From contig JBGARZ010000001.1 of the NCBI GenBank assembly GCA_044229975.1, positions 704,001-768,000 on the forward strand: a stretch of 64,000 nucleotides of DNA. Reading direction: 5' to 3'. The notes under the pieces are model-generated. The model was not told where the DNA came from. It saw only the letters and a list, made by a program, of their open reading frames with translations, and made no database searches. The position numbers and the translations under genes were made by a program. This DNA is from Polyangiales bacterium (GTDB lineage: Bacteria; Myxococcota_A; Polyangia; Polyangiales; Ga0077539). Shown in pieces: positions 26,165 through 41,575 of the stretch (position 1 is the first letter of the stretch; the number at the start of each line of letters is the position of its first letter).

Positions 26165-27109
26165 ATGCACAAAGTCATCATCGTGGGCAGCGGCCCCGCG
26201 GGGCTCACGGCTGCCATCTACGCGGGTCGCGCCAACATGGCCCCCGTGGTCATCGAGGGTCTCGGGGCGGACCACCAGCCGGGCGGTCAGCTCATGATCA
26301 CCACCGAGGTGGAGAACTACCCGGGCTTCCCGCACGGGGTCACCGGGCCGAAGATGATGGAGCTGTTCCGCGAGCAGGCCGAGCGCTTCGGGACGACCTT
26401 CCTCACCGAAGACGCGCTGCGCGTCGAGCTGCACGGCCCGGTGAAGCGCGTGTGGGTCGAGAGCCAGACGGAGCCGCTCGAAGCGCACTCCATCATCATC
26501 GCGACCGGCGCCGTCGCGCGCTGGATCGGCGCCCCCGGCGAGAAGGAACTCCAGAACTATGGCGTGTCGGCCTGCGCGACGTGCGACGGGTCGTTCTTCA
26601 AGGGCCAGGAGGTCATCGTGGTGGGCGGCGGCGACACGGCGCTGGAGGAGGCCCTGTACCTCTCCAACCTCGCGAGCACCGTCTACCTCGTGCACCGCCG
26701 CGACACCCTGCGCGCCAGCAAGATCATGCAAGACCGCGCGCTCAAGAACCCGAAGATCAAGTTCATCTGGAACGCCGAGATCGCCGAGGTCCGCGACGTG
26801 GCGGCGAAGAAGGTGACGTCGGTGATCCTGCGCGACACGGTCTCTGGTGAGACGCGCGAGATGCGCATCGACGCGGTGTTCGTGGCCATCGGTCACACGC
26901 CCGCGTCGGGTCTCGTCGAGGGCGTGGTCGACGCGCACGACAACGGCTACCTGCGCGTGGCCCACGGCTCGACCAACACCAACATCCCGGGTGTGTTCGC
27001 GTGCGGCGATGTGGCCGACCACGTGTACCGCCAGGCCATCACCGCCGCGGGCTCTGGCTGCATGGCCGCCATCGACGCCGAGCGCTACGTCTCGGCGCTC
27101 ATCGGCTGA
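26165..27109 (+). CDS. trxB: Thioredoxin reductase
   Basis: GSGPAG, GGQL, VENYPGF, SACATCDG, GGGDTA, YRQAITAAG. Confidence 0.96.
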   Translation: MHKVIIVGSGPAGLTAAIYAGRANMAPVVIEGLGADHQPGGQLMITTEVENYPGFPHGVTGPKMMELFREQAERFGTTFLTEDALRVELHGPVKRVWVESQTEPLEAHSIIIATGAVARWIGAPGEKELQNYGVSACATCDGSFFKGQEVIVVGGGDTALEEALYLSNLASTVYLVHRRDTLRASKIMQDRALKNPKIKFIWNAEIAEVRDVAAKKVTSVILRDTVSGETREMRIDAVFVAIGHTPASGLVEGVVDAHDNGYLRVAHGSTNTNIPGVFACGDVADHVYRQAITAAGSGCMAAIDAERYVSALIG

Positions 27110-27153
27110 CGTTCGCTTTGCGGGCGACGCCGACTCGTCCACAATCCAAAGCC

Positions 27154-27642
27154 ATGAGCGACACCACCGAGACCGTCACCGCGACGGCGAACCCCATCGC
27201 GCGCATCGCGCTGTTCCAGGGTCTTTCGCCGAAGTCGCTGGCCCGCGTGGCGAGCATCACGACGGCGCAGCGCTACCCCATCGGCACGGTGCTCTTCCGC
27301 GCCGGTGACGTGGGCGACCGGCTCTACATGCTGACCGAAGGGCGCGTGCGCATCTCGCGCGAGGTGCCTGGCATGGGCGAAGAGGCGCTCGCCATCATGG
27401 GGCCGGGCGACTACTTCGGAGAGATGGCCGTGATCGACCCGGCGCCGCGCAGCGCCGACGCGCACGTCCACGAGGCGTGCTCGGTGCTGGAGATCCGGAA
27501 GGACGAGATGGAGCACCTGATGCTGGTGCACCGCGACCTCGCCTACGAGGTGCTCTGGAACGTCGTACGCACCCTCACCACGCGACTGCGCGACACCACC
27601 GACAAGGTGACGTTCCTCGCGGTGACCGGGAAGTTCTCCTGA
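27154..27642 (+). CDS. Cyclic nucleotide-binding domain protein
   Basis: FRAGDVGD, GRVRI, GDYFGEMAVID..PRSADA; no HTH. Confidence 0.88.
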   Translation: MSDTTETVTATANPIARIALFQGLSPKSLARVASITTAQRYPIGTVLFRAGDVGDRLYMLTEGRVRISREVPGMGEEALAIMGPGDYFGEMAVIDPAPRSADAHVHEACSVLEIRKDEMEHLMLVHRDLAYEVLWNVVRTLTTRLRDTTDKVTFLAVTGKFS

Positions 27643-27643
27643 A

Positions 27644-28177
27644 CTACTGACTGTTGGCCGCGCCGGGTGTGCGTCGCGTGGCGGCGAACGCGCCGGTGCC
27701 GTCGGGGAAGCGCCCGTAGGTGAAGCCCGACGGGGCGGCGTTGGCGGGGTAGTGCGTCGTCGCGACGACCTGGTTCTCCGGGTCGACGAGGTGGATGTTT
27801 TCGCCGCGGCTGCCGGAGATGCCACCGGCGGTGCCGCGCGCGCAGACGTACGGCGTCGTCGACGACGGGCATGCGCCCTCGAAGAGCACCAGCACCCGAC
27901 CGCCAGCCGGAACCGTCGTCCCCGCGGGGAAGCGGATCGCGTGGCTCAGCTTGGGGAAGCCGTCCTTGCGGCTGTCGGTGACGGCGTAGCCGGAGATGTC
28001 GAGCGGTGTTGCGCCGGTGTTGAAGAGCTCGGCGAAGTCGTCGCCCGAGGCGCCAAACTCGTTGAAGGTGAGCTGCGCGGCGACCGGGTCTTCGCTCGCG
28101 CAGGACGCGCACGCCGCGGCGAGCAGCCACGCCAACCACGGAGTCTTCGGGGGGTTGGGCATCGATGGGTTCCTCAT
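27644..28177 (-). CDS. Lamin-tail-domain lipoprotein
   Basis: Lipobox-like CASC; FNE...DFAELFNTG..LDISGY.VTD; GEN.HL.DP; YGRFPDG; TPGAAN. Confidence 0.8.
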   Translation of the reverse strand: MRNPSMPNPPKTPWLAWLLAAACASCASEDPVAAQLTFNEFGASGDDFAELFNTGATPLDISGYAVTDSRKDGFPKLSHAIRFPAGTTVPAGGRVLVLFEGACPSSTTPYVCARGTAGGISGSRGENIHLVDPENQVVATTHYPANAAPSGFTYGRFPDGTGAFAATRRTPGAANSQ

Positions 28178-28800
28178 GGGGTCGCGGCGGGCGCGCGGGG
28201 CGGGCGCGCGGGGCGAGCGGGCTGGTGGAAGGAGACGGAGATGCCGAGGGTCCACCACTGGATGCTGCTGGTGTCCTGATCGGGGAGCGCGGTGTACGGG
28301 AAGTTGTAGCGGCCGAAGCCCTCGCGGCCCTCCCACACGTGACCCACGCGGAGCACCGGGCCGAGCGAGACGTTGGGGCCGAGGTCGAACGCGTAGCCCA
28401 CGCCCACGTCGAAGCCGGGACGCACCACCGTGCCCGGGAGGTACACACCGAAGTCGGCGTCGGCCCAGAGGCTTCCACGGCGACCGAGCGGTGCGCTCAC
28501 GCGGAGACCGAGGGTGCCCGCCACGAGCTGGATGTTGCGGCGGTCACGAACAAACTGACCGAAGGTTCCGCCGAACTGGAGGTACAGCGGGCCGACGAGG
28601 CGGAGGTCGAAGCGGCCGTGCGTGGTGACGGCGGGCGTTCCGAAGTCCACGCCCGCGTGGTCGAAGTCGTGGATCATCGTGCCCGCGCCGAGCTCCAGGT
28701 TGAAGCTCCAGCGACGCGGCGTGGGGCGACGCGCGTCCTGCGCGAACGCGGCCGAGGGCACGAGCAGCCCGACGAGGGCGAGTGTCGCGAGGGCCTTCAT
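28174..28800 (-). CDS. Exported protein, probable outer-membrane beta-barrel
   Basis: Signal peptide ending AFA; alternating beta-strand patterns; ATGA overlaps with both neighbours. Confidence 0.65.
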   Translation of the reverse strand: MKALATLALVGLLVPSAAFAQDARRPTPRRWSFNLELGAGTMIHDFDHAGVDFGTPAVTTHGRFDLRLVGPLYLQFGGTFGQFVRDRRNIQLVAGTLGLRVSAPLGRRGSLWADADFGVYLPGTVVRPGFDVGVGYAFDLGPNVSLGPVLRVGHVWEGREGFGRYNFPYTALPDQDTSSIQWWTLGISVSFHQPARPARPPRAPAATP

Positions 28801-29492
28801 GGTCGCGTCATGTCCAGGGTCCAGCGGGCGCTCAAACCAAGCATGTTGACGTTGGGCTCGTCGATGAACGACGGCATGTCGCGCATGTAATAGACCCGGA
28901 ACTGCCAGCGAGAAGCCTGCACCGCGAAGCCCGCGCCGACGCGCCAGCGGTCGTGTCCGACGTCGGGGTCGATGCGCGTCCAGTGCTCGCCAAACACGTT
29001 GGCGGTGAAGGGCCCCGGCAGGTGGAACTCCACGTTGATGCGGTTGCGCCACATGCTCCGATCGTCGGCGATGGAGACGCCGTAGTCCTCCTGCGTGACG
29101 GTTCGCCACTGCACGCGCGAGCGAAACTCCACGTCGATGCGACGCCACTCCCACTGCGCCGATGCGTCGAAGTGCAGGCGGTGTCCCTGTTCGAGATCAC
29201 CGAGGCCGTTGCGGCGCCAGAGGTAGCGGTAGCCCACGCCAAGTCGCAGCGGACCGACGACGCGGTAGTCGACCTCCAGCTCCGGGATGACCCGGCGGAG
29301 GCCGTACTCCGAGAAGCGGACGTTCTCGGTGAAGGTGAGCCGCAGTCGACGGATGGGGACGAGGCGGGCGCCGAACTCGGCCCAGTACTCCATGCTCTCG
29401 ACGTTGGCGTGGGCGACGCTGGGGAGCGCGAGCGTCGCGACGGTCACCAGCGCGGAGGCGAAGAGGCGGGCGGGCGATGGAGTGGACGGCAA
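28797..29492 (-). CDS. DUF2490-like outer-membrane beta-barrel
   Basis: Signal ending AHA; GYRY, RSRVQWR, RNRI, RWRVGAG, NMLGL strands; start uncertain. Confidence 0.65.
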   Translation of the reverse strand: MPSTPSPARLFASALVTVATLALPSVAHANVESMEYWAEFGARLVPIRRLRLTFTENVRFSEYGLRRVIPELEVDYRVVGPLRLGVGYRYLWRRNGLGDLEQGHRLHFDASAQWEWRRIDVEFRSRVQWRTVTQEDYGVSIADDRSMWRNRINVEFHLPGPFTANVFGEHWTRIDPDVGHDRWRVGAGFAVQASRWQFRVYYMRDMPSFIDEPNVNMLGLSARWTLDMTRP

Positions 29493-29584
29493 CGGGTGTC
29501 TCCAGAACGCGCCCTGACGCGGGAGCGAGTCTCTTCGGTGACTGAATGGTGACGATGCGCCGGGCGCTTCGAGAATTCCATCCC

Positions 29585-30868
29585 TCAGCGCGCGAGCCAC
29601 GCGCACGGCCCAGCGGGGACGACGGCGGGCGCACTCCGTGGTCGACGGCGTACGAGCTGACGGAGGCGCTGCCAGTCGCGGGTCACCTGCTCGGCGTAGC
29701 GCACCGCGACGTCGGCCTGTTCATCAGCGAAGGCATCACGGTCGGCGGTGACCGCCCCCATCAACGATCGCCGGTGGATGGCCGCGAGGTGGGCACCGAG
29801 CGTTTGCGCGAGGTCATGCAGCGCGGCGAACTCACCGAGCGGACCGCGCAGCTTCGTGACGCGAAGCCCACGCGACGCATCGACCTCCGCGCGCACCTGA
29901 ACGGGACAGCCGCGCCACGTCGTCGCGCCCCACAACGGGTCGGCGTCGGCGTGCGTCCAGAGCGCTCGTCGCGCGGCGATCACCCTCGCCACCGGGTCGG
30001 GTTGGGGCTGCGGCATCGGGGCGTCGACCAGCTCCTTCAGCTCGACGATCACGTCGTCACCCGGGTCGTCCGTCGGACCTCGCAGGAGCAACAGCAGACG
30101 CACGCGACCCAGACTCGCCGTCCCACGACCCAACGCGCGCACCACATCGAGCACCGTGAAGAACACCGCGTCGCGCGGCTCGACCAGCGTCGCGCGGTAC
30201 GACGTCATGAGCTCCGCGGTCGCGTCGCGCACAGGAGCACCCACGTCTTCCAGGCGCTTGTTCGGGTCGTTGCGATCGATGGACCCGCGACGCAAGCGAC
30301 GGGTGCCTCCGTCGAGCACGGTGAAGTCTTCGAGCTCGTCGCGGCGGCTCACGGCCCGTTGTGTGCGCGTGAGCAGCTCGTCGACCACGGCGCCGTTGCT
30401 CGGAGGTGGAGCGCCCGCGATGCCATCGGCGTAGGCCAGCGCGGCGGTGCGGGCGAGCTCGCGGCCGTGGCGGGGAGCGGCGAGGCACAGCGCGACCGAG
30501 AGGCGGCGCAGGTCCCACAGGTACGAGACGGGGCCCGCGCAGTCGAGGTCGTTGGCCTCGAAGGTGACGCGACCGTCGCGACCGACGAGCGTGCCGAAGT
30601 TCTCGACGTGGGGGTCGCCCACGCTGAAGGGGCGCGCGTGCTGATCGTCGAAGCGCGAGCGAGCGAGGCCGGTGGCCGGGTCGAGCCAGTCGCTCAAGAA
30701 CACCGGGAGCGCGGCGCGGTAGAAGGAGAAGGGCGACGCGATGACACGCGACGGATCGAAGCCGTCGACGAGGGAGAGCAGGCGCGCGTCGCGGTCGTCG
30801 CCCACGTCGGCGGTGACGACGGCGAGCGCAGCGGCGAGCAGCATCGCGAGGGGGCGCGTTCGGGGCAC
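29585..30868 (-). CDS. DUF2252-family protein with hydrophobic N-terminus
   Basis: SPFSFYR, GDPHVENFG, NDLD, WDLRRL, GTASLGR.R, ELKE. Confidence 0.8.
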   Translation of the reverse strand: MPRTRPLAMLLAAALAVVTADVGDDRDARLLSLVDGFDPSRVIASPFSFYRAALPVFLSDWLDPATGLARSRFDDQHARPFSVGDPHVENFGTLVGRDGRVTFEANDLDCAGPVSYLWDLRRLSVALCLAAPRHGRELARTAALAYADGIAGAPPPSNGAVVDELLTRTQRAVSRRDELEDFTVLDGGTRRLRRGSIDRNDPNKRLEDVGAPVRDATAELMTSYRATLVEPRDAVFFTVLDVVRALGRGTASLGRVRLLLLLRGPTDDPGDDVIVELKELVDAPMPQPQPDPVARVIAARRALWTHADADPLWGATTWRGCPVQVRAEVDASRGLRVTKLRGPLGEFAALHDLAQTLGAHLAAIHRRSLMGAVTADRDAFADEQADVAVRYAEQVTRDWQRLRQLVRRRPRSAPAVVPAGPCAWLAR

Positions 30869-30904
30869 TGGATCGGGGCGCGACGCTAACAGAGAGCGGC
30901 GGCT

Positions 30905-32962
30905 CTACTCGCTCCGTCCGGGGTACGGGCGGGCCTGCTTGACGACGAGGCGCGCGGGCTCGGCCGTCCCGCCGCGGTCGAACTTGAACTCGACGTCCAT
31001 CGCGTACCAGCCGTTGTTGCCCGCGGCCGGTCCGTACGCCGCGGAGAAGCGCTGGTGGATGGCGGTGAGCGCGGTGCCGAGCTCGTGCACCTGCGTGGGC
31101 GTGAGCACGGTGAAGCCCGCGGGCACCAGGTTGGAGCGCGCGAGGTAGGTCACCGGCTGCCCCGGCTGGCTGAAGTAGTGGAGAAACTGATCGCTCGTGA
31201 TGCCGGGTCGCGGGTGCACCACCTCCACGTCGCCGCCGAACTGCACGTTGACGTAGAGCGCCGGGTCGAGGCCCGACTCGTCGAAGGGGTTGGCCGTGAC
31301 GGCGACGCCGTTCGCGTCCTCGTCGGGGAAGTTGTAGTGCACCAGCAGCGCCATGCCGACGGAGCGGTGGTCGACGCCGTAGTAGCTGCGCTCTTCGTAG
31401 GTGCGGTACGACCACGAGCTCGCGTAGGTCTCGCGGATGGCGTTGAGGAGGTTGTTCCACTCGGCGGGGTCGCCCGAGTGGGACTCGTAACAACCCGCGC
31501 AGGGGAAGCCTTCGAGGTCTTCGCTGTTGGTGCTCGTGCGGAAGCGCAGCGTGCCGTTGGAGAAGTCCGTGCGGATCTTCTCGCGGAGCTGCGCCTGTAG
31601 CCCTTCGTCGACGGTTCCGGCCATGATCGCGTCGTGAAACTCGCCGAGGCGGCTCGCGCGGTACGCCGAGTTGTCGCGAAACTGCGCGTCGGCCTGGAGC
31701 GCCGCGAGGCGATCGTAGAGCCCGTTGTCGCGCATGAACTTGTCGTAGAAGTACACGGGCACCGCGAAGGCCGGTCGCACCGGGACGCCCGGCGTACGCG
31801 CCAGGATGGAGTACTGCGCAGCCTTGCCACCGTAGGCGCGCGTCGCGGCCACGAGGTTGGCGCGCAGGGTCTGCGTGCCGGTGGGCTCCGGCGTGACGTC
31901 CTCGATGTCGACGATGGTCTGCGCCGTGAGGTCGAGCGGTGGGAGGGTGATGGCCGTGGGGCGGTGCGCGGCCCAGTAGGTCTCGGCCTCGGTCTGGGTG
32001 GCCTCGCGGATGGTCCACGCGTCGGCCGTGACGGCGAGCTCGACGAGGCGGCCTTCGAGCGCGCGGAGACGCGCGTTGGTCATCGCGCCGCGCAGTCCCA
32101 TGTTGGGCGTGTGGCGGTTCTGCGAGAGCACGTTGATGTGTGAGAGCGGGGTCTGGAAGGTCTCGGTGATGAGGCCCTGCACCACGGAGATGTCGTTGGG
32201 CGCCTCGTCGAGCACGACGATGTCCTCGAAGGAGAGAAACTGCGACGACAGCGCGTTGGCCGTGCTGAAGCGCAGCCGCCCGAAGGAGGTCGCGATGGTG
32301 AGCGGCTGGTACTCGATGCGCGCGTAGATCTGGTCGGTGGTGATCATCCGCGTTCCCGCGGGGAGGTCACGCGCGGTGACGGCCGCGGTGTCGGAGGTCG
32401 GGTGCACCGCGAGCGCGGGGCCGAAGAAGGCCACCTGCTTCACGGCGTTGTAGAGGGTCGAGATCATCGCGGCGGAGGCGGTGTCGTAGGGCGAGAACTC
32501 CAGCGCCCACACGCCGGGGCCTTCGTAGTGGGTGACGGCCGCGAGGATGAAGCGCCGGTCGGGGCTGAAGTACTCCGTGGTGTTGAACACCGACAGCGAT
32601 GGAACCACCGGCATCCCGTTGCCCGACAGGTGCGTGGAAACAAAGCGGTAGTGGATCTGGAAGCGCTGGCTGTTCTGGAAGTACAGGTTGCCGTTGGTGC
32701 GGTCGTAGACGACCTTCACCGAGCGCGCACCGGGGAGCGTGGTGTCGAGCGGTGCCGACGCGAGGGCGTTGAAGTCCGCGCTGCACTGCACCTGCCGCAG
32801 CGAGTCCGGCGCCATGGTCGGGTCCGCGACCTGGCAGGTGCCCTCGACCAGCGTGACGGGGGTGTCCGTCGTCGCGGCGGGGCTCTCGTCGTCGGTGCAG
32901 CGGGCGAAGGCCAGCAGCAGCGCGAGGAGCCCGGCGAGGTGTGGCGGGAGCCGCGGGTTCAT
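30905..32962 (-). CDS. PEP/pyruvate-binding (ATP-grasp) dikinase-like protein with predicted lipoprotein signal
   Basis: GGKAA, FAVP, RTSTNSEDL..F..AG.YES, NGVAVT, DVEF, KQARP; upstream LITE..TPLSHINV His motif; N-terminal LLALLLAFARC. Confidence 0.82.
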   Translation of the reverse strand: MNPRLPPHLAGLLALLLAFARCTDDESPAATTDTPVTLVEGTCQVADPTMAPDSLRQVQCSADFNALASAPLDTTLPGARSVKVVYDRTNGNLYFQNSQRFQIHYRFVSTHLSGNGMPVVPSLSVFNTTEYFSPDRRFILAAVTHYEGPGVWALEFSPYDTASAAMISTLYNAVKQVAFFGPALAVHPTSDTAAVTARDLPAGTRMITTDQIYARIEYQPLTIATSFGRLRFSTANALSSQFLSFEDIVVLDEAPNDISVVQGLITETFQTPLSHINVLSQNRHTPNMGLRGAMTNARLRALEGRLVELAVTADAWTIREATQTEAETYWAAHRPTAITLPPLDLTAQTIVDIEDVTPEPTGTQTLRANLVAATRAYGGKAAQYSILARTPGVPVRPAFAVPVYFYDKFMRDNGLYDRLAALQADAQFRDNSAYRASRLGEFHDAIMAGTVDEGLQAQLREKIRTDFSNGTLRFRTSTNSEDLEGFPCAGCYESHSGDPAEWNNLLNAIRETYASSWSYRTYEERSYYGVDHRSVGMALLVHYNFPDEDANGVAVTANPFDESGLDPALYVNVQFGGDVEVVHPRPGITSDQFLHYFSQPGQPVTYLARSNLVPAGFTVLTPTQVHELGTALTAIHQRFSAAYGPAAGNNGWYAMDVEFKFDRGGTAEPARLVVKQARPYPGRSE

Positions 32963-33939
32963 GGCGTGAGCGCGAAGCAGTAGAAGCCGCCGTAGCCGCC
33001 GCCCGAGCCCACCGTCGGGATGGCGAGGTTGGGGGGGCCCATCTCGATGAGGCTCACGCCCGGCGCGCAGCCGGCCTCGTCGAGGGACGACATCCAGTGG
33101 TCCATGCTGCCGCCACCACCGCCACCGCCGCCGGTGTTGCGCGGCCAGGAGTGACCCACGCGGGGTCGGCCCTCGGTGGTGCGGTTGCCGAGCGCGCTGG
33201 TCCAGTCGAGGCACGTCGCCGTGGCGCCGTAGAGGCGGCCCGAGGCGTTGCTGCCCGTGAGCATGTCGTGGTTGTCGACCTGCCCTGCGGTCGGATCGGG
33301 TCGATGGTTGGGCACGCCGTCCTCGTTGGGGAAGTCGTTGCGGATGGCCGAGTGCGCCATCGTCGGGCGCGTCGCCGTGATGTCCGAGAGGGTCGTTCCG
33401 AAGAGGCGGCCGAGGCGGTCGTACCAGGGGCCCGACCCGATGCGGGTGATGGCGTGCACCTGGGCGCCCGTCCCGTCGTTGGTCGCGCTCAAGAACGCTC
33501 GCCACTGCTTGCGGCTCGACCCCGGCATGCTGCGCTCGGCGATGGCCGCACAGATGCGATCGGCCCCGCGGATGCCTGCGTTGGCGCCGGTCTCGCCGTA
33601 GCGCAGGTCGCCGCCAAAGCCGCTCGCGCTGCCGGAGAGGTCTTGCAGCGCGCGCAGGCTGGTGACGAAGAAGCTGAAGCGCGGGAGCTCGCCCACGTCC
33701 CCCGCGACGCCGACGTCCGTCACGGCAGTGCCTGCGTCGACCACGGGAGTGATGCCTGCGTCGATCACCGGAGTCACGCCGACGTCGTTCGTGGTGGTGC
33801 TGCCTGTGTCGGTCGGGGTCACCGTCACGACGTCCGACCCGGCGCCGCTGTCGGTGTTCTGGATGATGATGATGTCGCCGCACCCGAGGGCGCCCAACGC
33901 GAGGCAGCCCAGCCAACGGTTCCAGTGTCGTGCGCTCAT
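32959..33939 (-). CDS. Lipoprotein with endostatin/DUF1554-like (C-type lectin fold) domain
   Basis: Lipobox ALGC; FFVTS, GDL, GADRIC, WRAFLS, RIGSGPW, TCLDWTS, FYCFA. Confidence 0.7.
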   Translation of the reverse strand: MSARHWNRWLGCLALGALGCGDIIIIQNTDSGAGSDVVTVTPTDTGSTTTNDVGVTPVIDAGITPVVDAGTAVTDVGVAGDVGELPRFSFFVTSLRALQDLSGSASGFGGDLRYGETGANAGIRGADRICAAIAERSMPGSSRKQWRAFLSATNDGTGAQVHAITRIGSGPWYDRLGRLFGTTLSDITATRPTMAHSAIRNDFPNEDGVPNHRPDPTAGQVDNHDMLTGSNASGRLYGATATCLDWTSALGNRTTEGRPRVGHSWPRNTGGGGGGGGSMDHWMSSLDEAGCAPGVSLIEMGPPNLAIPTVGSGGGYGGFYCFALTP

Positions 33940-33953
33940 GGTCGTCGCTCCTT

Positions 33954-34967
33954 TCATCCGCAGGTGAGGTCGGCGCGGCAGGTGCCCGCATCGCCGCAGT
34001 CGGTGTCGCTGGTGCACGATCGCAGCCCGGGGATCGTCACCGGCGTCTCCACGCCCGACGACACCACCAGCTCGACGCGCCCCGCAGGCAGCGGCGCCGA
34101 CCCGATGGCCTCGCGCGTCACCACCACCGTGGGGTAGCCCGCGACGCCCAGCGCCAGCAGCCGCGTCACCAGGTTGGCCCCGATGCTGAGCTCGCCGTCG
34201 TCCGCGGTGTCGCACTCGATCTTGCCGCGCGTCCCGCCGTGGTGGCTGATGTCCAGGTGCACCAGCACGCGCTGCCCGGTCTGCGTCGGCGCCGTCCACC
34301 GCAACGCAAACGCCGTCCCGGTCGCCAGGTTGAGCGCGCCCGTCGCCAGCGCGAGCGGCGCGATGCCCCGCGTCTCCAGCGCAAACGCCGACGCCCACGC
34401 GCTGCCGCCCGCCTCGACGCGCAGCGCATCGCCCTCCGCAAACGCCGGGTACGGCAGCTCGACGGAGGTCTGATACGCGTTGGCCACGGTGACCATCTCG
34501 AAGCTCGTCGCGCCGTCCGAGGTGCGAACGCCGGTCACCCGCACCGTCCCTACGCTCTGCGACGCGGGGTACGGACGACAGGTGTTGTTCTCGACGCACA
34601 CCGCGCTGCCGCCGCACGGCGTCGCGCAAAACGGAACCCGCGGCGTGACCAGCCGACAATCACCATCGACCGCGGCCTCTTCCCACACGAGCTGCGCGGG
34701 CGTGGGGCCGTCCTGCACGCGACCCACGACCGAGGTGTACCCGGGGCCCGCGTCGGTGCCCGCGATGAGCTGAACCTGGAAGGTTCCGATGACCGCGTCG
34801 GTGGCGACGCCTCCGTCGGTGGCGGTGGTGCCGCGATCGGTGACGGCGCCCGCGTCGGTCACGCTGGCGTCGCTCGCGGGGGTGCTCGATCCGCAGGCGG
34901 ACAGGGCGAAGGCAAGGAGGGAGGGAGCGCACCAGCGGTGCGCACTCGAAGGCTTCAGTTCGGGCAT
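33954..34967 (-). CDS. Cys-rich lipoprotein, unknown function
   Basis: Lipobox LSAC; Cys clusters at the N- and C-termini. Confidence 0.7.
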   Translation of the reverse strand: MPELKPSSAHRWCAPSLLAFALSACGSSTPASDASVTDAGAVTDRGTTATDGGVATDAVIGTFQVQLIAGTDAGPGYTSVVGRVQDGPTPAQLVWEEAAVDGDCRLVTPRVPFCATPCGGSAVCVENNTCRPYPASQSVGTVRVTGVRTSDGATSFEMVTVANAYQTSVELPYPAFAEGDALRVEAGGSAWASAFALETRGIAPLALATGALNLATGTAFALRWTAPTQTGQRVLVHLDISHHGGTRGKIECDTADDGELSIGANLVTRLLALGVAGYPTVVVTREAIGSAPLPAGRVELVVSSGVETPVTIPGLRSCTSDTDCGDAGTCRADLTCG

Positions 34968-34971
34968 TGGG

Positions 34972-35595
34972 TCATCCCTTCTCGACCGACCCATCCCGGG
35001 GACCGGGGCGGTAGGTCACGATGAGCTCGGCGCTGTCGTGGAGGAGGTCGACGTTTTCGACGACGACCCGTGAGCACTGCGCCCCGAGGCGCTTGGAGAG
35101 GTCGGCCAGCAGGGCGGCGCGCTGGTCGGCCTGGAGGAGTTCGAGGCGGTCGTAGCGGACCATCACGGTGTCCTCGTGGCGGCCCCACTGCCCGAGTTCG
35201 AGCACGGCGAGGACGGTGAGCAGCGCGGCGTCGATGAGCACCACCCGCGCGAGGTCGGCGGCGTGGGCCGCGACGCCGTTGAGGATCGCGAGCCCGATGA
35301 CCGTGAAGAGGTACGTGAGGTCGCGGATGCGCATCGCCTCGGTGCGGTACCGGAGGATGCCGAACACCGCGAAGAGGCCGAGCGAGAGGCCCATCTCGAC
35401 GCGCACGCCCGCGAGCATGTAGGCGACCGAGAAGGTGATGAGGTTGAGCAGCCAGTACGTGAACGCGTACTCGCGGCGCGGATAGAGCCGCACGTAGACG
35501 ACCTGCACCACGATGAAGGTGGCCACGAGGTCGAGGAGCAGGCGCGGCGCGAAGGAGACGAGGGCACTGAGGAGAAGCTCGAAGGCGTGGTGCAT
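34972..35595 (-). CDS. DUF4956 membrane protein
   Basis: GLSLGLFAVFGILRYRTE..IRDLTYLF..IGL; TGATG overlap with the VTC gene. Confidence 0.88.
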   Translation of the reverse strand: MHHAFELLLSALVSFAPRLLLDLVATFIVVQVVYVRLYPRREYAFTYWLLNLITFSVAYMLAGVRVEMGLSLGLFAVFGILRYRTEAMRIRDLTYLFTVIGLAILNGVAAHAADLARVVLIDAALLTVLAVLELGQWGRHEDTVMVRYDRLELLQADQRAALLADLSKRLGAQCSRVVVENVDLLHDSAELIVTYRPGPRDGSVEKG

Positions 35596-36461
35596 CAGCG
35601 GCCCCTTTCGATGGCGCGGAGCGACGGGCGGAAGGCGTTGGCGGGCTCGTCGCCGAGCAGCGCGATGGCCATGCAGTACTTGCTGAACGAGAGCAGACGC
35701 GCCTGGTGCTGGCGCAGCGCGCACACGAGCGGTGAGGCGGGGCCGCGGCCGACGTCCTTCACCTCGACGACCACCATGGAGTCGACCACGCGCCGCGCGT
35801 CGGCCCGCTCGAAGGTGACCTGGAAGTCGAGGGTCGCGCGCTCGACGGAGGTTGCGTTGACCAGCATGAGGCGGTGGAAGAGCGTGCGCGCCTGCGGGAC
35901 GATCTCCCCGTCGGAGTAGATGCGCGGCACCGCGGCGAGCAGCAGCGCGCGGTCGGTGGACGTGAGCTCGGTGGTCATCTCGGGGCGCTTCCAGCGGAGC
36001 TTGCGGGTGTCGCCGCGCGCCGTCTTCTCCTTGTATTCGAGCATGGAGATTTCGCGGTCGACGTAGTTGCGCACGCGCAGCTTGAAGCGCGGGCGGCGGC
36101 CCCGGCGGTGGTCGTGGTAGCTGCGGAGCGACGCGGTATCGAAGTAGACCGTGTCGTAGAGGGCGAGGCGCTCTTCGCGCGCGAGCACCACGCGGTAGTC
36201 GTTGGTCAGCGCCCCGACGACGGCGAGCGCCTGGCTCGCGGGCAGCAGGAACTTCCGGTCGTAGCGGCGTTCGAGGGCGGCCCGTTCGAGCTCGGTGGCG
36301 CTGGCGACGGCGAAGCGCGCGGCGAGGTCGGCCATGGGGCCGGTGCGCGGGTCGACGGGAGGGGCGGGCGGGCGCGCGCTCACGATCGGGAAGGACCCCG
36401 AAGGGCGCCGCGAGTCAACGACGATGGGACGCGCGGCGGCGGGTTCGAGGAGCGACTGCAT
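35595..36461 (-). CDS. VTC-domain polyphosphate polymerase
   Basis: RYDRKF, YDTVYFDT, RFKLRVRNY, LEYKEK, ERATLD, VVEVK, FSKYC. Confidence 0.88.
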   Translation of the reverse strand: MQSLLEPAAARPIVVDSRRPSGSFPIVSARPPAPPVDPRTGPMADLAARFAVASATELERAALERRYDRKFLLPASQALAVVGALTNDYRVVLAREERLALYDTVYFDTASLRSYHDHRRGRRPRFKLRVRNYVDREISMLEYKEKTARGDTRKLRWKRPEMTTELTSTDRALLLAAVPRIYSDGEIVPQARTLFHRLMLVNATSVERATLDFQVTFERADARRVVDSMVVVEVKDVGRGPASPLVCALRQHQARLLSFSKYCMAIALLGDEPANAFRPSLRAIERGR

Positions 36462-36605: not shown

Positions 36606-37616
36606 ATGTTGCGATATGACCCCATCGTGGACCGCGCGTGGAGGCTCGCGACGCTGAGCCTGGCGTCGCTGTCGATGGCAGGGACGGCGGCGGGCGCCCA
36701 GGAGACCGGGCGGTTTCGCTACGCCTGGGCGCGCGACGAGGGCGCCGAACGCTGCCCCGACGGCCCCACCATCGCCCGCGACGTCGCGCGGCGGTTGGGT
36801 CGCGATCCCTTCGTGACGGTGAGCGGAGCGCCCTCCATCGAAGCGATGGTGCGCCGCGAGGGGTCGTCCTGGGTGGCCCGCCTCGTGGTGCGCGACGCGG
36901 GCGGCGGCCTCGTCGGCACGCGTGAGTTCACCAGCACCTCGGCCGACTGCACCGCCATCGCCTCGGCCGTCACGCTCGGGGTCGCGCTCTCCATCGATCC
37001 AGAGGCCGCGCTCCGACCGCCCCCGACCGAAGCGCCGCCCACCGCTCAACCAGTGACCCCGCCCGACGTCTCGCCTGCCCGCATCACACCGCCGACTCCC
37101 TGGTGGCGGCGGGCATCGGCGAGCGCGCGCGTGTCCGTGATGGCGGGACTGCTACCGGGCGCGGGCGTCGGGCTCTCGCTGGGCGCCGAGGGTGGGCCGC
37201 TGCCGTTGCTGCGAGTCGGCGCGGGGATGTCGTTCTTCCCCGAGTCGGCGACGACGTCGGGGGCGTACGCGTTCGGGTTGGCGACGGGCTGGGTCACCGC
37301 GTGTCTCGAACCATGGCGCGGTGTGCGCGCGGCGTTGGGGTTCTGCGCGCGGGTCGACGTGGGGGCGCTACAGGCCGTCGTGATGCGGGGCATCCCGCTG
37401 GGTGCCGGACAGCAGGTGTGGGGCGCGGTCACCCTCGCGCCGCGGTTGCGTCTCCACATCGCGGGGCCGGTTGCGGCCGAGCTCGGCGTCGAAGCGATGG
37501 TTCCCTTCGCGCGGCACCGCTTCAACGTCGACAGAAACACCGTGTTTCAGCAGGGAGTCGGCGGGAGCTTCGTGGCGCTCGGAGGATTCCTGGGGCTCGC
37601 CTTGCAGTTTCGCTGA
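36606..37616 (+). CDS. Exported hypothetical protein with C-terminal beta-barrel-like region
   Basis: Signal-like N-terminus, CPD motif, Pro-rich linker, beta-strand-like C-terminus; start uncertain. Confidence 0.65.
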   Translation: MLRYDPIVDRAWRLATLSLASLSMAGTAAGAQETGRFRYAWARDEGAERCPDGPTIARDVARRLGRDPFVTVSGAPSIEAMVRREGSSWVARLVVRDAGGGLVGTREFTSTSADCTAIASAVTLGVALSIDPEAALRPPPTEAPPTAQPVTPPDVSPARITPPTPWWRRASASARVSVMAGLLPGAGVGLSLGAEGGPLPLLRVGAGMSFFPESATTSGAYAFGLATGWVTACLEPWRGVRAALGFCARVDVGALQAVVMRGIPLGAGQQVWGAVTLAPRLRLHIAGPVAAELGVEAMVPFARHRFNVDRNTVFQQGVGGSFVALGGFLGLALQFR

Positions 37617-37641
37617 AGGGGGGACAACCCCAACGACATTC

Positions 37642-38223
37642 ATGGGCCGGATGTACCAGACGCTCGCCAGCCCCCTGACCGCGGACGCCCCCCGAGCGCT
37701 CGACCTCAACGAGGTCTATGCCGCGCACGCGGACTTCGTGTGGGCCTCGCTCCAGCGGCTGGGGGTTCGGCCGAGCGACCTCGACGACATGCTCCAGGAA
37801 GTCTTCATGATCGTGCACCAGCGGCTGCACACCTTCGATCACAGCTCGAAGGTCACGACGTGGCTCTTCGGGGTGTGCCTGCGGGCGGCGTCGGACTACC
37901 GACGTCGGGCGTGGCGTCGGCGCGAGAGCGTCGGCGACGAGCCGGTGGAGGAGCCCGGTGGCTCGCACGAGACGACCCCCGAAGACGATGCAGCAGGCAG
38001 CGAAGCGAGGGAGCGCCTCGACGCCGTGCTCGACGAGCTCGACGTGGAGAAGCGCGCGGTGTTCGTGATGTTCGAGGTGGAGGAAATGGGCTGTGATGAG
38101 ATCGCCGCCCTGGTGGGCGTGCCCGTCGGCACCATCTACTCGCGTCTGCACTCCGCGCGAAAGCAGTTCGAGAAGGCGCTCGCCCGACAGAAGGCGCGGG
38201 ACGTTCATGGAGGTGCGCGATGA
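37642..38223 (+). CDS. ECF RNA polymerase sigma factor
   Basis: DDMLQEVF, TTWLFG, KRAVFVMFEVEEM...EIA...PVGTIYSRL..AR. Confidence 0.92.
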   Translation: MGRMYQTLASPLTADAPRALDLNEVYAAHADFVWASLQRLGVRPSDLDDMLQEVFMIVHQRLHTFDHSSKVTTWLFGVCLRAASDYRRRAWRRRESVGDEPVEEPGGSHETTPEDDAAGSEARERLDAVLDELDVEKRAVFVMFEVEEMGCDEIAALVGVPVGTIYSRLHSARKQFEKALARQKARDVHGGAR

Positions 38224-39116
38224 GTGACCCGATTCGCTGGCGGGCGCCCGGCGGCGGCGCTCCCTCCGGGGCGCGCGACCTGCTCCGTCACGCCTCGGCG
38301 CCGAAGGCACTGAGCGCCGCACACCGGGCCCACCACGCGGCGGTGCTCGCGAAGGCTACGGCGGCGGTCGGCGCGGGCACCGGGGCGGCCGCGGGGACCA
38401 AGCTGGCCCTGGGCGCGAAGCTCTTCGCGAGCGGCAAGCTGGTGGTCATCGGGCTCGCGTCGGTGGCCGTCGTCGCGGTGGCCACGGCGACCATCCGCCA
38501 GCCCGCGGTGCAGCCCACGGCGCCGGTCGCGCAGGTCCACGTCGCGCCGCGCGAAGACGCACCCGTCTCGCCCGCGAGGGTCGCGGAGCCCGTGGTGCCG
38601 GAGACGTCGCCGCCGCCTGCGGTCGAGCCCGTCGCGGCACCTGTCGTCGAGCCGGTGGTTGCGGTCACAGCACCTGTCGCGCGCCACACTGCGCCATCGG
38701 TCGCTGCTCCCTCTGCGATCGCTGCGGCGAGCGGCGATCCGGCACCAGCGCCCACCGCCGAAACCACCGCTGACCCCACACCCGCCACGGGTGGTGGGGT
38801 CGTCGTCGCGCCGACGATCGCCACGGCAGCCGCGCCGATGCCGCCGGAAGATCCGCTCGCCGTCGAGGCGCGCCTCATGGAGCGGGCGTGGCGTTCGCTG
38901 GCGTCCGATCCGCACGACGCGCTCGCGATCGTCCAACAGCACGAGCGGGAGTTTCCCAACGGCCAGAGTGCTGCTGACCGTGACTGGATCGCCGTCCAGG
39001 CGCTCCGCTCGCTCGGGCGCACCGCCGAGACCCGCGCCCGCGCCCAGGCGCTCATCGCGCATCACCCGCGAAGTCCCTACGTCCAGCGCGCGCGGGATAT
39101 CCTCGACGCTCCATGA
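38220..39116 (+). CDS. Putative membrane anti-sigma factor with Pro-rich linker and TPR-like C-terminus
   Basis: ATGA overlap with the sigma factor gene; one TM helix; HEREFPNG..HPRSPY. Confidence 0.65.
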   Translation: MSDPIRWRAPGGGAPSGARDLLRHASAPKALSAAHRAHHAAVLAKATAAVGAGTGAAAGTKLALGAKLFASGKLVVIGLASVAVVAVATATIRQPAVQPTAPVAQVHVAPREDAPVSPARVAEPVVPETSPPPAVEPVAAPVVEPVVAVTAPVARHTAPSVAAPSAIAAASGDPAPAPTAETTADPTPATGGGVVVAPTIATAAAPMPPEDPLAVEARLMERAWRSLASDPHDALAIVQQHEREFPNGQSAADRDWIAVQALRSLGRTAETRARAQALIAHHPRSPYVQRARDILDAP

Positions 39117-40066
39117 GCTGGCCTCCCGCGTCGACCGCTCTGCTTCTCGCCGTCGCTCTCTCCGCCTGTACGCCCGACGTCGATCTCGCGACCTCCGCCG
39201 CACCCGATGCATCTCCGCCCCGCTGGGCCGTCGTCGCCAGCACCACGCCCGTCGACCTCCGCGCCATCCACGGCACCGCCGCCGATGACATCTGGGCCGT
39301 CGGCGACAATGGCGTCGCACTCCACTGGGACGGTTCCCGCTGGAGCGCCGTCGCCACCAACACGTCCGTCGACCTCGTCGGTGTCTGGGCCCACACGCGC
39401 GACGACGCCTGGGCCTTCGGTGGTGGCAACCCCGGCGGCCCGCGCTTCCTCCGCTGGAACGGCACCGCCTGGAACCCCGTCACCCCGAGCCTCCCCCGCC
39501 CCATCTTCCCGCGCGCCGTCTGGGGCGCCGACAACCACGTCTGGTTTGTCGGTGAAGCCATGGGAGGCGATCCGCCCATCTACCACTGGGACGGCACCAG
39601 CTTCGGGCCCGAGATGGTCCCGACCCGCCCGCAGCAGCTCGTCGGCATCACCGCCGCCAGCGCCGACGACGCCTGGACCGTCAGCGATCGTGTGATCGCC
39701 CGCCGGGTCAGCGGCAACTGGACCCTTCCCTTGCCGCCACCGCCCAGCGGTCCTCCCTTCGCCGGCGCGATGTGCGCGACCCGCGGCGGCGTGTGGGCCG
39801 CCGTCGAAGGCGGCCCCGTCCTGCGCGGCAACGGAAGCGGCTGGAACCCCACCACACCTCCCACCTCGACCACGCTGCGCGCCCTCTGGTGCGACCGCAC
39901 CGATGACGTCTGGGCCCTCGACGGCAGCGCCCGCATCCTCCACTTCCACGACTCCGCGTGGACCGTCGAGCCCTTGCCCCGCGGCGACCTCTCGGCGCTC
40001 TGGGGCGTCGGCAACGAGCTCTGGGCCGTCGGCGCCCGCGGCACCATTCTCCGGTCCAACCCGTAG
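39113..40066 (+). CDS. Lipoprotein with beta-propeller-like repeats
   Basis: Lipobox LSAC; repeated L..(V/I)WG...DDxWAVG...HWDG..W. Confidence 0.75.
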   Translation: MSWPPASTALLLAVALSACTPDVDLATSAAPDASPPRWAVVASTTPVDLRAIHGTAADDIWAVGDNGVALHWDGSRWSAVATNTSVDLVGVWAHTRDDAWAFGGGNPGGPRFLRWNGTAWNPVTPSLPRPIFPRAVWGADNHVWFVGEAMGGDPPIYHWDGTSFGPEMVPTRPQQLVGITAASADDAWTVSDRVIARRVSGNWTLPLPPPPSGPPFAGAMCATRGGVWAAVEGGPVLRGNGSGWNPTTPPTSTTLRALWCDRTDDVWALDGSARILHFHDSAWTVEPLPRGDLSALWGVGNELWAVGARGTILRSNP

Positions 40067-41557: not shown

Positions 41558-41575
41558 GCGCCGCGAGACACCACC

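What the first reader, a model, noticed from the sequence alone, without database searches (positions are those of the whole stretch)
27644..36461. Nine-gene VTC polyphosphate operon dominated by exported proteins and lacking CotH
Seen: VTC polymerase - DUF4956 - lipoprotein - lectin-fold lipoprotein - dikinase-like lipoprotein - DUF2252 - DUF2490-like barrel - second barrel - lamin-tail lipoprotein, all on one strand with TGATG/ATGA overlaps or gaps under ~100 bp. Known: yeast VTC couples polyP synthesis to membrane translocation, and bacterial VTC-DUF4956 pairs often sit with CotH kinases. Inference: VTC plus DUF4956 may deliver polyP to the envelope, where two exported phosphotransfer enzymes use it to modify surface glycans or proteins. 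This would be an uncharacterised extracytoplasmic phosphorylation system.
Basis: partly seen in the sequence, partly recalled or inferred. Interest (0 to 1): 0.8.

Follow-up and report, generated by a model that had tools for sequence, protein, structure and literature searches.

The report
Exported dikinase tied to polyphosphate polymerase
Nine tightly packed genes join a predicted yeast-type polyphosphate-making enzyme and its membrane partner to a likely exported enzyme built like plant starch dikinase, a pairing repeated in dozens of myxobacterial loci, which would give bacteria an untested way to attach phosphate to molecules outside the cytoplasm.

Summary
The nine genes are real, co-directional and tightly spaced, and no CotH was found in this 93%-complete genome. 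The nine-gene string is not the conserved unit. The core is VTC + DUF4956 (usually with an outer-membrane conduit) plus a three-lipoprotein cassette (genes 3-5); DUF2252, the second barrel and the lamin-tail gene are optional. Gene 5 is the key part. It has an N-terminal domain with no solved-fold match, a swivelling His275 domain and a C-terminal ATP-grasp with intact catalytic residues: the domain order of plant glucan, water dikinase. Close homologues co-occur with VTC in 62 of 68 genomes (87 of 233 otherwise). They lie beside VTC/DUF4956 in 34 of 96 non-redundant loci, with two VTC subtypes about 23% identical. Gene 5 does not replace CotH: 61 of those 68 genomes have both. My best reading is that exported polyphosphate is the phosphoryl donor. 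This is untested, and a distant paralogue occurs in 16 of 17 relatives without VTC. The scan noted the VTC module many times and this dikinase family once on other DNA; I found no note or paper linking them.

The parts
35595..36461 (-). Gene 1: VTC (Vtc4-type triphosphate-tunnel) domain protein, 288 aa (or 246 aa from the ATG at 36335); no signal peptide; predicted polyphosphate polymerase. Core.
   Evidence: Pfam PF09359 9e-21; profile hit to Vtc4 3g3q 1.4e-9; K70, R129, R131, E233, K261 align to Vtc4 K200, R264, R266, E426, K458
34972..35595 (-). Gene 2: DUF4956 membrane protein, 207 aa, four hydrophobic segments plus a soluble C-terminal part; overlaps gene 1 by TGATG. Core.
   Evidence: PF16316 1e-45; hydropathy; overlap
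33954..34967 (-). Gene 3: Cys-rich predicted lipoprotein, 337 aa, no known family, invariant His-His-Gly-Gly motif. Core cassette.
   Evidence: No Pfam, NCBIfam or PDB hit; atlas gives only unnamed Myxococcota clusters; alignment of 30; near gene 5 in 24 of 30 and 50 of 80 loci
32959..33939 (-). Gene 4: predicted lipoprotein, 326 aa, weak DUF1554 similarity; lectin/endostatin-like fold is recalled, not shown. Core cassette.
   Evidence: DUF1554 in 33 of 33 aligned members, best 7e-6, under the cut-off for the window's protein; no PDB hit; near gene 5 in 26 of 30 and 44 of 80 loci
30905..32962 (-). Gene 5: predicted lipoprotein, 685 aa: N-terminal domain without a solved-fold match (39-216), swivelling phosphohistidine domain (about 217-321, His275), C-terminal PEPS/RPH-type ATP-grasp (about 346-685); glucan, water dikinase domain order. 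Core cassette.
   Evidence: AF2 mean pLDDT 94; 5hv1 Z 29.9, rmsd 2.4, 293 aligned; 2e28 Z 10.7, rmsd 2.5, 99 aligned; atlas GWD1_pHisD 0.90; conservation
29585..30868 (-). Gene 6: DUF2252 kinase-like protein, 427 aa, hydrophobic N-terminus without the lipoprotein Cys of its homologues, with short deletions but intact motifs. Optional.
   Evidence: PF10009 5e-39; alignment; DUF2252 listed in the PKinase clan with flipped lobes (PMC9758233)
28797..29492 (-). Gene 7: DUF2490 predicted outer-membrane barrel, about 231 aa (start uncertain). Usual partner of this VTC subtype.
   Evidence: PF10677 3e-11; present at the locus in 10 of 11 family genomes with the module
28174..28800 (-). Gene 8: small predicted outer-membrane barrel, 208 aa, with 8 paralogues in the genome. 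Optional.
   Evidence: Sub-threshold autotransporter-barrel match; paralogues; at the locus in 5 of 11 family genomes
27644..28177 (-). Gene 9: lamin-tail-domain predicted lipoprotein, 177 aa. Frequent but optional; the same domain is fused to some distant gene 5 homologues.
   Evidence: PF00932 3e-9; 7 of 11 family loci, 8 of 30 and 16 of 80 other loci; fusions P0171, P0176, P0204

Best explanation
This operon encodes a likely envelope phosphorylation system: the VTC protein is predicted to make polyphosphate from ATP, DUF4956 would pass it across the inner membrane, and the likely exported gene 5 enzyme, which has the histidine-swivel and ATP-grasp layout of starch dikinase, would use it as phosphoryl donor for an unknown acceptor outside the cytoplasm. 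Shown: gene order, domain layout, catalytic-residue conservation, and repeated linkage of genes 3-5 to two distant VTC subtypes. Inferred: polyP synthesis and export; loading of His275 at the ATP-grasp site from the polymer; transfer to an acceptor held by the N-terminal domain (conserved K83, H104, Y131, R136, E155, D160); genes 3, 4 and 9 as accessory lipoproteins that present or hold the acceptor; DUF2490 (HlyD-TolC in the other subtype) as outer conduit. DUF2252 and CotH would be optional further client kinases.
For: VTC keeps the five Vtc4 residues checked (R264/R266/E426 in PMC9911596, K458 in PMC4641920, passages). DUF4956, gene 4 and a 67-75% identical gene 5 occur in the same 11 of 30 family genomes. 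In a 12th (G022) VTC and gene 5 survive only as fragments side by side, with genes 2-4 not found. Phylum sample of 301: VTC in 62 of 68 genomes with close gene 5 against 87 of 233 without; among CotH-positive genomes 57 of 61 against 67 of 89. 30 of 30 GTDB genomes picked by gene 5 have VTC. VTC lies within 10 kb in 8 of 30 GTDB loci, and VTC or DUF4956 in 29 of 80 metagenome loci (11 of 23 loci of 12 kb or more); 34 of 96 clusters at 90% identity. The link holds for two VTC subtypes about 23% identical, one with DUF2490 and one with HlyD + TolC. Gene 5 fold and catalytic residues are intact. 111 of 120 close homologues have an N-terminal hydrophobic stretch, and distant ones are fused to RTX, PKD, fn3 or lamin-tail domains. 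E. coli has no known inner-membrane ATP translocase (PMC7432876, passages).
Against: No activity is measured. The grasp domain keeps all nucleotide-phosphate residues of the ATP-using RPH (K380, R475, S494, E658 = Lys22, Arg117, Thr136, Glu297). I found no residue change that marks the VTC-linked clade as a polyP user (11 mostly conservative differences). A 35-39% identical paralogue with the same His motif is found in 16 of the 17 family genomes with no VTC match; several of the 12 inspected show a signal-like N-terminus with Cys. So the enzyme family does not need VTC. 87 of 149 VTC genomes lack a close gene 5, and 6 of 68 gene 5 genomes lack VTC. Low-level periplasmic ATP is reported in E. 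coli (PMC7432876). VTC has an acidic residue (D68) at a tunnel position that is acidic in TTM hydrolases. I know no ATP-grasp dikinase that uses polyP (own knowledge). Genomes are related and fragmented, so the P values overstate.
Confidence: 0.3

Rival explanations
1. Gene 5 is an ordinary ATP-dependent water dikinase that works on periplasmic or scavenged ATP. VTC-DUF4956 belongs to the same envelope task (for example supplying polyP as a structural or metal-binding polymer, or as the acceptor) but is not its phosphoryl donor.
For: All RPH nucleotide-phosphate residues are kept and the grasp domain matches RPH at Z 29.9, rmsd 2.4. The paralogue occurs in 16 of 17 family genomes with no VTC match. 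About 24 uM per 10^10 cells of periplasmic ATP is reported for E. coli (PMC7432876, passage).
Against: It does not by itself explain why this clade sits next to VTC so often, in many metagenome loci as the very next gene, with two VTC subtypes, or why both decayed together in G022.
Confidence: 0.3
2. Gene 5 runs the other way: its N-terminal domain takes phosphate from exported polyP, His275 carries it to the grasp site, and a nucleotide is recharged to ATP in the envelope for exported kinases (CotH or DUF2252).
For: Gene 5 co-occurs with CotH in 61 of 68 genomes. A kinase-fold gene is the next gene after gene 5 in several loci: DUF2252 here, in G012, G025, G029, G023 and in the unrelated locus L199; CotH in L055 and L063. 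The N-terminal domain conserves K83, H104 and R136.
Against: The grasp domain is of the PEPS/RPH water-dikinase type (Z 29.9 against 16.4 for PPDK). Making ATP from AMP + Pi with one polyP bond is uphill; only a PPi-consuming route would be near equilibrium (own knowledge). 67 of 124 genomes with VTC and CotH lack close gene 5. RPH also uses Arg/Glu/Lys at its ordinary acceptor site (PMC4844700). CotH lies near gene 5 in only 7 of 96 clusters and DUF2252 in 2.
Confidence: 0.15
3. The bacterial VTC protein is not a polymerase but another tunnel enzyme (triphosphatase, polyphosphatase or nucleotide-processing enzyme), so the envelope cassette is served by a product other than polyP.
For: TTM folds have several activities (PMC4641920, passages). 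One acidic-patch position is acidic here (D68; Glu in the other subtype). The genome also has ppk1. No test of a bacterial VTC protein turned up in the paper searches.
Against: The closest solved sequences are Vtc4 and Vtc2. The first acidic-patch position is Arg as in Vtc4, and the Vtc4 catalytic K458 is kept, invariant in 11 of 11 aligned.
Confidence: 0.17
4. The string is a mosaic of unrelated envelope genes gathered behind one promoter, with no functional link between VTC-DUF4956 and genes 3-5.
For: Gene order varies. Genes 6, 8 and 9 are optional and have paralogues elsewhere in the genome, including a DUF2252-unknown-LTD string on C20. The cassette stands without nearby VTC in most loci, including the Sorangium ones. 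No DUF4956 match in 8 of 8 same-genus genomes.
Against: Linkage in 34 of 96 clusters, where about one VTC gene per multi-megabase genome would give well under 1% (inference). Two VTC subtypes. VTC present elsewhere in all 30 genomes.
Confidence: 0.08

Closest known systems
Eukaryotic VTC complex (yeast Vtc4/Vtc3/Vtc1; PDB 3g3q, 8i6v)
   Same: Tunnel domain with K200, R264, R266, E426, K458 equivalents; a membrane protein is translationally coupled to it.
   Different: No SPX domain and no membrane helices on the enzyme. The partner is DUF4956, not a Vtc1-type subunit. One acidic tunnel residue differs from Vtc4. It is linked to outer-membrane and lipoprotein genes. Activity untested.
cotH - polyphosphate-polymerase - DUF4956 accessory genes of Gram-positive pel operons (10.1101/768473; 10.1101/2024.04.20.589940; passages read)
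   Same: Same VTC + DUF4956 pair next to an exported phosphotransferase-fold protein; function unexplained in both papers.
   Different: No CotH and no pel genes here; instead a dikinase-fold lipoprotein cassette, DUF2252 and outer-membrane barrels. The 2024 preprint suggests the polyP may stay in the cytoplasm.
Plant alpha-glucan, water dikinase GWD1 (PMC13553574, passages read)
   Same: Order acceptor-side domain, histidine domain, C-terminal ATP-binding domain; grasp domain closest to RPH in both; weak GWD1_pHisD similarity.
   Different: No CBM45 modules. A small alpha/beta N-terminal domain instead of the 444-residue central domain. Half the size, and a predicted lipoprotein. Acceptor unknown.
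Rifampin phosphotransferase / PEP synthase / PPDK
   Same: ATP-grasp (5hv1 Z 29.9) and swivelling His domain with conserved catalytic residues.
   Different: Domain order differs (RPH: grasp, acceptor, His; PEPS/PPDK: grasp, His, barrel; PMC4844700). No pyruvate-binding barrel. Scores far under NCBIfam cut-offs. Predicted exported.
DUF2252 and CotH protein-kinase-like families
   Same: Gene 6 is a DUF2252 member; both families are listed in the PKinase clan (PMC9758233).
   Different: Gene 6 has a signal-like N-terminus; it is optional at the locus; no activity known from the passages read.

Membership tests
VTC/Vtc4 polyphosphate polymerase | VTC tunnel domain (PF09359) | tested here: met
   74.9 bits, cut-off 23; profile hit to 3g3q 1.4e-9
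VTC/Vtc4 polyphosphate polymerase | Catalytic and substrate residues K200, R264, R266, E426, K458 | tested here: met
   K70, R129, R131, E233, K261 by the profile alignment
VTC/Vtc4 polyphosphate polymerase | Basic residues in place of the acidic patch of TTM hydrolases | tested here: inconclusive
   R66 matches Vtc4 R196, but D68 is acidic; two of four positions examined
VTC/Vtc4 polyphosphate polymerase | Makes polyP from ATP | not testable with these tools
   needs an assay
Eukaryotic VTC complex | SPX domain and three-helix membrane domain on the subunits | tested here: not met
   288-aa protein with VTC domain only and no hydrophobic segment
Bacterial cotH-VTC-DUF4956 cassette | Adjacent VTC and DUF4956 | tested here: met
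   TGATG overlap
Bacterial cotH-VTC-DUF4956 cassette | CotH at the locus | tested here: not met
   none in the nine genes and 0 matches in the 93%-complete genome
Glucan, water dikinase (GWD/PWD) | His domain followed by C-terminal ATP-binding domain | tested here: met
   model ranges 179-283 and 308-647 of residues 39-685
Glucan, water dikinase (GWD/PWD) | GWD1_pHisD (PF22973) at the curated cut-off | tested here: not met
   15.4 bits against 27; 10 of 34 homologues at E <= 0.1, best 21.4 bits; atlas 0.90
Glucan, water dikinase (GWD/PWD) | Carbohydrate-binding modules in the same chain | tested here: not met
   no CBM match in Pfam and only about 180 residues before the His domain
Glucan, water dikinase (GWD/PWD) | GWD-type central acceptor domain | tested here: inconclusive
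   N-terminal domain folded alone and searched; no row stands out, and an unlisted family is not excluded
Glucan, water dikinase (GWD/PWD) | Transfers the ATP beta-phosphate to alpha-glucan | not testable with these tools
   needs an assay
PEP synthase / PPDK / RPH | Catalytic residues of the grasp and swivel domains | tested here: met
   H275, K380, R475, S494, Q676, R678 in 30 of 30 close homologues, E658 in 28 of 30
PEP synthase / PPDK / RPH | N-terminal ATP-grasp and full-length family score | tested here: not met
   grasp is C-terminal; 54.6 bits against 598 (PEPS) and 44.6 against 999 (RPH)
DUF2252 | PF10009 at cut-off with conserved motifs | tested here: met
   134.9 bits, cut-off 22.3; D85, H87, N90, D107, D109, K278 invariant in 5 of 5
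C-type-lectin/endostatin-like fold (gene 4) | Fold or family match | tested here: inconclusive
   DUF1554 under the cut-off; no PDB profile hit; no structure predicted; resemblance recalled

The most novel reading that the evidence does not exclude
Myxobacteria export polyphosphate through a VTC-DUF4956 machine and use it as the energy currency of the cell envelope: a lipoprotein dikinase with a new acceptor domain takes phosphoryl groups from the polymer, directly or by recharging ATP, through a swivelling histidine. It would be the first polyP-driven extracytoplasmic phosphotransfer system and a bacterial counterpart of starch dikinases.
Probability: 0.3. Interest if true: 0.9.

Novelty: new variant of a known kind. 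Interest (0 to 1): 0.7.

Why it matters
Exported bacterial kinases (CotH, DUF2252, this dikinase family) pose an open question: what do they use as phosphate donor where ATP is scarce? This locus names a soluble, well-folded enzyme with a trappable phospho-histidine whose gene travels with a candidate polyP exporter, so the question becomes a one-tube test (ATP against polyP). It also gives the widespread but unexplained bacterial VTC-DUF4956 module a second, CotH-independent client. And it points to a large bacterial family (976 representatives at E <= 1e-30) with the starch-dikinase layout and an acceptor domain without a solved-fold match. Cultured Sorangium, Polyangium and Hyalangium strains carry the cassette.

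Tried and rejected
CotH replaced by PPDK_N: rejected as a rule. It holds only locally: G055 and G047 have CotH-VTC-DUF4956-DUF2490 without gene 5, while this family has the cassette without CotH at the locus. Nine genes as the conserved unit: rejected. My first tblastn missed the second VTC subtype; profiles built from session sequences corrected this. Fold of the gene 5 N-terminal domain (pLDDT 96): best Z 4.4 of 48,161 chains, none at Z 5 or more; no Foldseek hit at E <= 0.001 in PDB or BFVD. The Z 3.9 row for polyphosphate kinase is background and I give it no weight. Genes 3 and 4: no PDB profile hit; not folded. A complex prediction of gene 5 with gene 4 was not available, so binding is untested. 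Clade-specific residues marking polyP use: none convincing; His542 replaces the usual Gln but is also the commonest residue in distant homologues (57 of 77). A phylum control with the distant paralogue gave only 9 genomes, 7 with VTC: too few. No RNA holder listed. No sigma-70 promoter-like site, and no terminator-like site on the operon's strand. The neighbouring phosphate porin and acid phosphatase are not conserved beside the module. Paper searches listed no test of a bacterial VTC protein and no exported dikinase of this kind; they cover open-access text only, and I read no supplements.


Full report
Observation. The window is 70% G+C and lies on contig C32 of a 10.0-Mb, 93%-complete genome; the closest named homologues of gene 5 are labelled Polyangiales or Myxococcales. 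Nine open frames run on the minus strand from 36461 to 27644 with spacings -1, +4, +14, -4, +36, +92, -4, -4. Pfam confirms VTC, DUF4956, PPDK_N, DUF2252, DUF2490 and LTD over their cut-offs; gene 4 has a weak DUF1554 match, gene 8 a sub-threshold barrel match, gene 3 nothing. Seven products have a signal-like N-terminus by inspection and hydropathy. The genome has one VTC gene, a ppk1 gene and no CotH match. The description is correct, except that the lectin fold is not shown.

What is conserved in the family. Of 30 same-family genomes, the same 11 carry DUF4956, gene 4 and a 67-75% identical gene 5. None of the 8 same-genus genomes does; one (G004) has a VTC piece at the start of a 2.2-kb contig. 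VTC, DUF4956, DUF2490 and genes 3-5 lie on one contig in 7 of the 11, in several different orders; the other 4 are split by contig ends. All nine genes in this order are on one contig in 2 of 11 (G012, G025). DUF2252 follows gene 5 in 4 of 11, the second barrel is present in 5 and the lamin-tail gene in 7. In G022, VTC and gene 5 remain as fragments around DUF2490, with genes 2-4 not found in 18 kb. CotH is found in 3 of 30 family genomes, at none of these loci. So the core is six genes, not nine.

Wider distribution. A GTDB scan with gene 5 returned 30 loci (47-75% identity; Sorangium, Polyangium, Hyalangium, Kofleriaceae and MAGs; one, L053, has a gene 5 identical to family locus L107 and is not independent). 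Gene 3 is near in 24 and gene 4 in 26, VTC within 10 kb in 8 and CotH in 8, both in 2. All 30 genomes have VTC somewhere. The best 80 of 592 metagenome loci gave gene 3 in 50, gene 4 in 44, VTC or DUF4956 in 29, CotH in 2, DUF2252 in 1; of the 23 loci of 12 kb or more, 11 hold VTC. Merging these 110 loci at 90% identity leaves 96 clusters: 34 with VTC/DUF4956, 7 with CotH, 2 with DUF2252, 76 with gene 3 or 4; at 75%, 60 clusters: 21, 4, 2, 45. Many contigs are short, so these are lower bounds. Outside this family the partner is mostly another VTC subtype, about 23% identical, that travels with a divergent DUF4956, HlyD and TolC. Its gene 5 neighbours are spread over the gene 5 tree, while the family's gene 5 forms one clade (FastTree support 1.0, rooted on the paralogue, partial sequences left out). 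In a phylum sample of 301 genomes, 149 have VTC, 150 CotH and 68 a close gene 5 (E <= 1e-130; only four candidates scored per genome). VTC is in 62 of the 68 against 87 of 233; CotH in 61 of the 68 against 89 of 233; among CotH-positive genomes VTC is in 57 of 61 against 67 of 89. Kinship inflates the significance. Of 25 genomes with VTC and no CotH only 5 have gene 5, so it is an additional client, not a stand-in.

Gene 5. The AlphaFold model of residues 39-685 has mean pLDDT 94 (112 sequences). Its C-terminal part matches the ATP-grasp of rifampin phosphotransferase (5hv1, Z 29.9, rmsd 2.4, 293 aligned). Its middle matches swivelling phosphohistidine domains (2e28 Z 10.7, rmsd 2.5, 99 aligned; enzyme I; the PPDK carrier domain). 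The ESM Atlas points to the GWD1 phosphohistidine domain (0.90), and 10 of 34 homologues match that Pfam family weakly, none at its cut-off. The order acceptor side, His, ATP-binding is that of potato GWD1 and differs from RPH, PEPS and PPDK (PMC13553574, PMC4844700; passages). H275, K380, R475, S494, Q676 and R678 are kept in 30 of 30 close homologues and E658 in 28; K380, R475, S494 and E658 align to RPH Lys22, Arg117, Thr136 and Glu297. The N-terminal domain folds confidently alone and conserves K83, H104, F107, Y131, R136, E155 and D160 in close and distant homologues; its fold searches are told under Tried and rejected, and the acceptor is unknown. The family is large and distant members are fused to RTX, PKD, fn3 and lamin-tail domains, which fits export.

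VTC, DUF4956, DUF2252. A profile of 11 bacterial VTC proteins finds Vtc4 first (1.4e-9) and aligns K200, R264, R266, E426 and K458 to K70, R129, R131, E233 and K261 (roles from PMC9911596 and PMC4641920, passages). The N-terminal tunnel strand has Arg as in Vtc4 at one position but Asp at the next, where hydrolases are acidic, so polymerase activity is likely, not certain. DUF4956 has four hydrophobic segments. DUF2252 is listed in the PKinase clan with flipped lobes (PMC9758233; 10.64898/2026.09.18.752743; passages). The window's copy keeps the invariant motifs but lacks the lipoprotein Cys and has short deletions. An unrelated locus of the other subtype also has a DUF2252 gene right after gene 5 (L199), and CotH holds that position in L055 and L063. 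If anything interchanges with CotH it is DUF2252, on thin numbers.

Mechanism. I commit to polyP export feeding gene 5 as phosphoryl donor (0.30). Shown: gene order, linkage, fold, residues. Inferred: synthesis, export, donor use, acceptor. The strongest counter-evidence is the distant paralogue (35-39% identical), found in 16 of 17 family genomes without VTC, with an intact His motif in 12 of 12 inspected and none of the profiled module genes (VTC, DUF4956, DUF2490, CotH, genes 3, 4 and others) in their short flanks (12 of the family genomes without DUF4956 were fetched). The architecture therefore works without VTC, and low periplasmic ATP is reported in E. coli (PMC7432876, passages). An ATP-using enzyme in a shared task scores as high (0.30). 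ATP recharging for CotH or DUF2252 is possible but thermodynamically awkward for a water-dikinase-type domain (0.15; own knowledge). A non-polymerase VTC gets 0.17, no functional link 0.08.

Comparison and novelty. The cotH-polymerase-DUF4956 set is in print beside Gram-positive pel operons without a function (10.1101/768473; 10.1101/2024.04.20.589940; passages). Nine paper searches (listings only, apart from the passages named, plus PMC10657179 and PMC13700237, passages, not informative) gave no test of a bacterial VTC protein and no description of this dikinase cassette; subscription papers and supplements were not seen. Earlier scan notes report the VTC-DUF4956-DUF2490-CotH and VTC-DUF4956-HlyD-TolC modules many times and this dikinase family once, without VTC; two look-ups for the link returned nothing. 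These notes are not evidence. I file the locus as a new variant of the known but unexplained bacterial VTC-DUF4956 cassette. Gene 5 works like a GWD by layout but is not a GWD family member.

Verdict. Observation confirmed; interpretation partly supported. Interest 0.70: the link between an exported swivelling dikinase and a candidate polyP exporter is well supported genomically and makes the donor question directly testable. The boldest reading (polyP as envelope phosphoryl currency) has probability about 0.3 and interest 0.9.

Noticed in passing
window 36609-40066 (+): Divergent four-gene string (unknown exported protein, ECF sigma factor, likely anti-sigma, repeat lipoprotein); two to four of these genes lie next to VTC in G012, G014, G025 and G029. 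Sigma/anti-sigma-like pairs also precede the cassette in Sorangium loci. A candidate regulator.
   Followed up: partly
window 40157-43018 (+): Phosphate-selective porin O/P gene followed by a purple acid phosphatase gene; not conserved beside the module in the 64 loci tested, apart from one distant hit each.
   Followed up: partly
window 26165-27646: Thioredoxin-reductase-like and cNMP-binding genes on the plus strand end one base from the stop of gene 9, tail to tail, with no terminator-like site between them.
   Followed up: no
L002:5765-11756 (G000:C20): Second string in the same genome: DUF2252 lipoprotein, unknown exported protein, lamin-tail lipoprotein, divergent from an amidohydrolase-LTD fusion.
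   Followed up: partly
L003:11717-13678 (G000:C33): Distant gene 5 paralogue (35% identity, lipoprotein signal, His motif intact), nearly universal in the family and independent of VTC; the natural control for a donor assay.
   Followed up: yes
L228:8288-10300 (G022:C375): Decayed copy of the module: half a VTC domain, DUF2490, two fragments of gene 5.
   Followed up: yes
L028:13187-17461: A response regulator and histidine kinase are inserted between DUF2490 and DUF4956 in G024; similar frames in G026.
   Followed up: partly
L055:14444-16462; L079:9665-11722: In the second VTC subtype the HlyD adaptor is fused to a phytase-like esterase domain, followed by TolC, with no pump gene seen.
   Followed up: partly
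P0137, P0188, P0222, P0266, P0268, P0269: Giant members of the gene 5 family: two PPDK_N stretches (P0137, P0188), RTX repeats, a PIG-L deacetylase, a protein kinase domain, PKD repeats.
   Followed up: no
L078, L168, L175, L186: Gene 4 is repeated two to five times near gene 5 in several loci.
   Followed up: no
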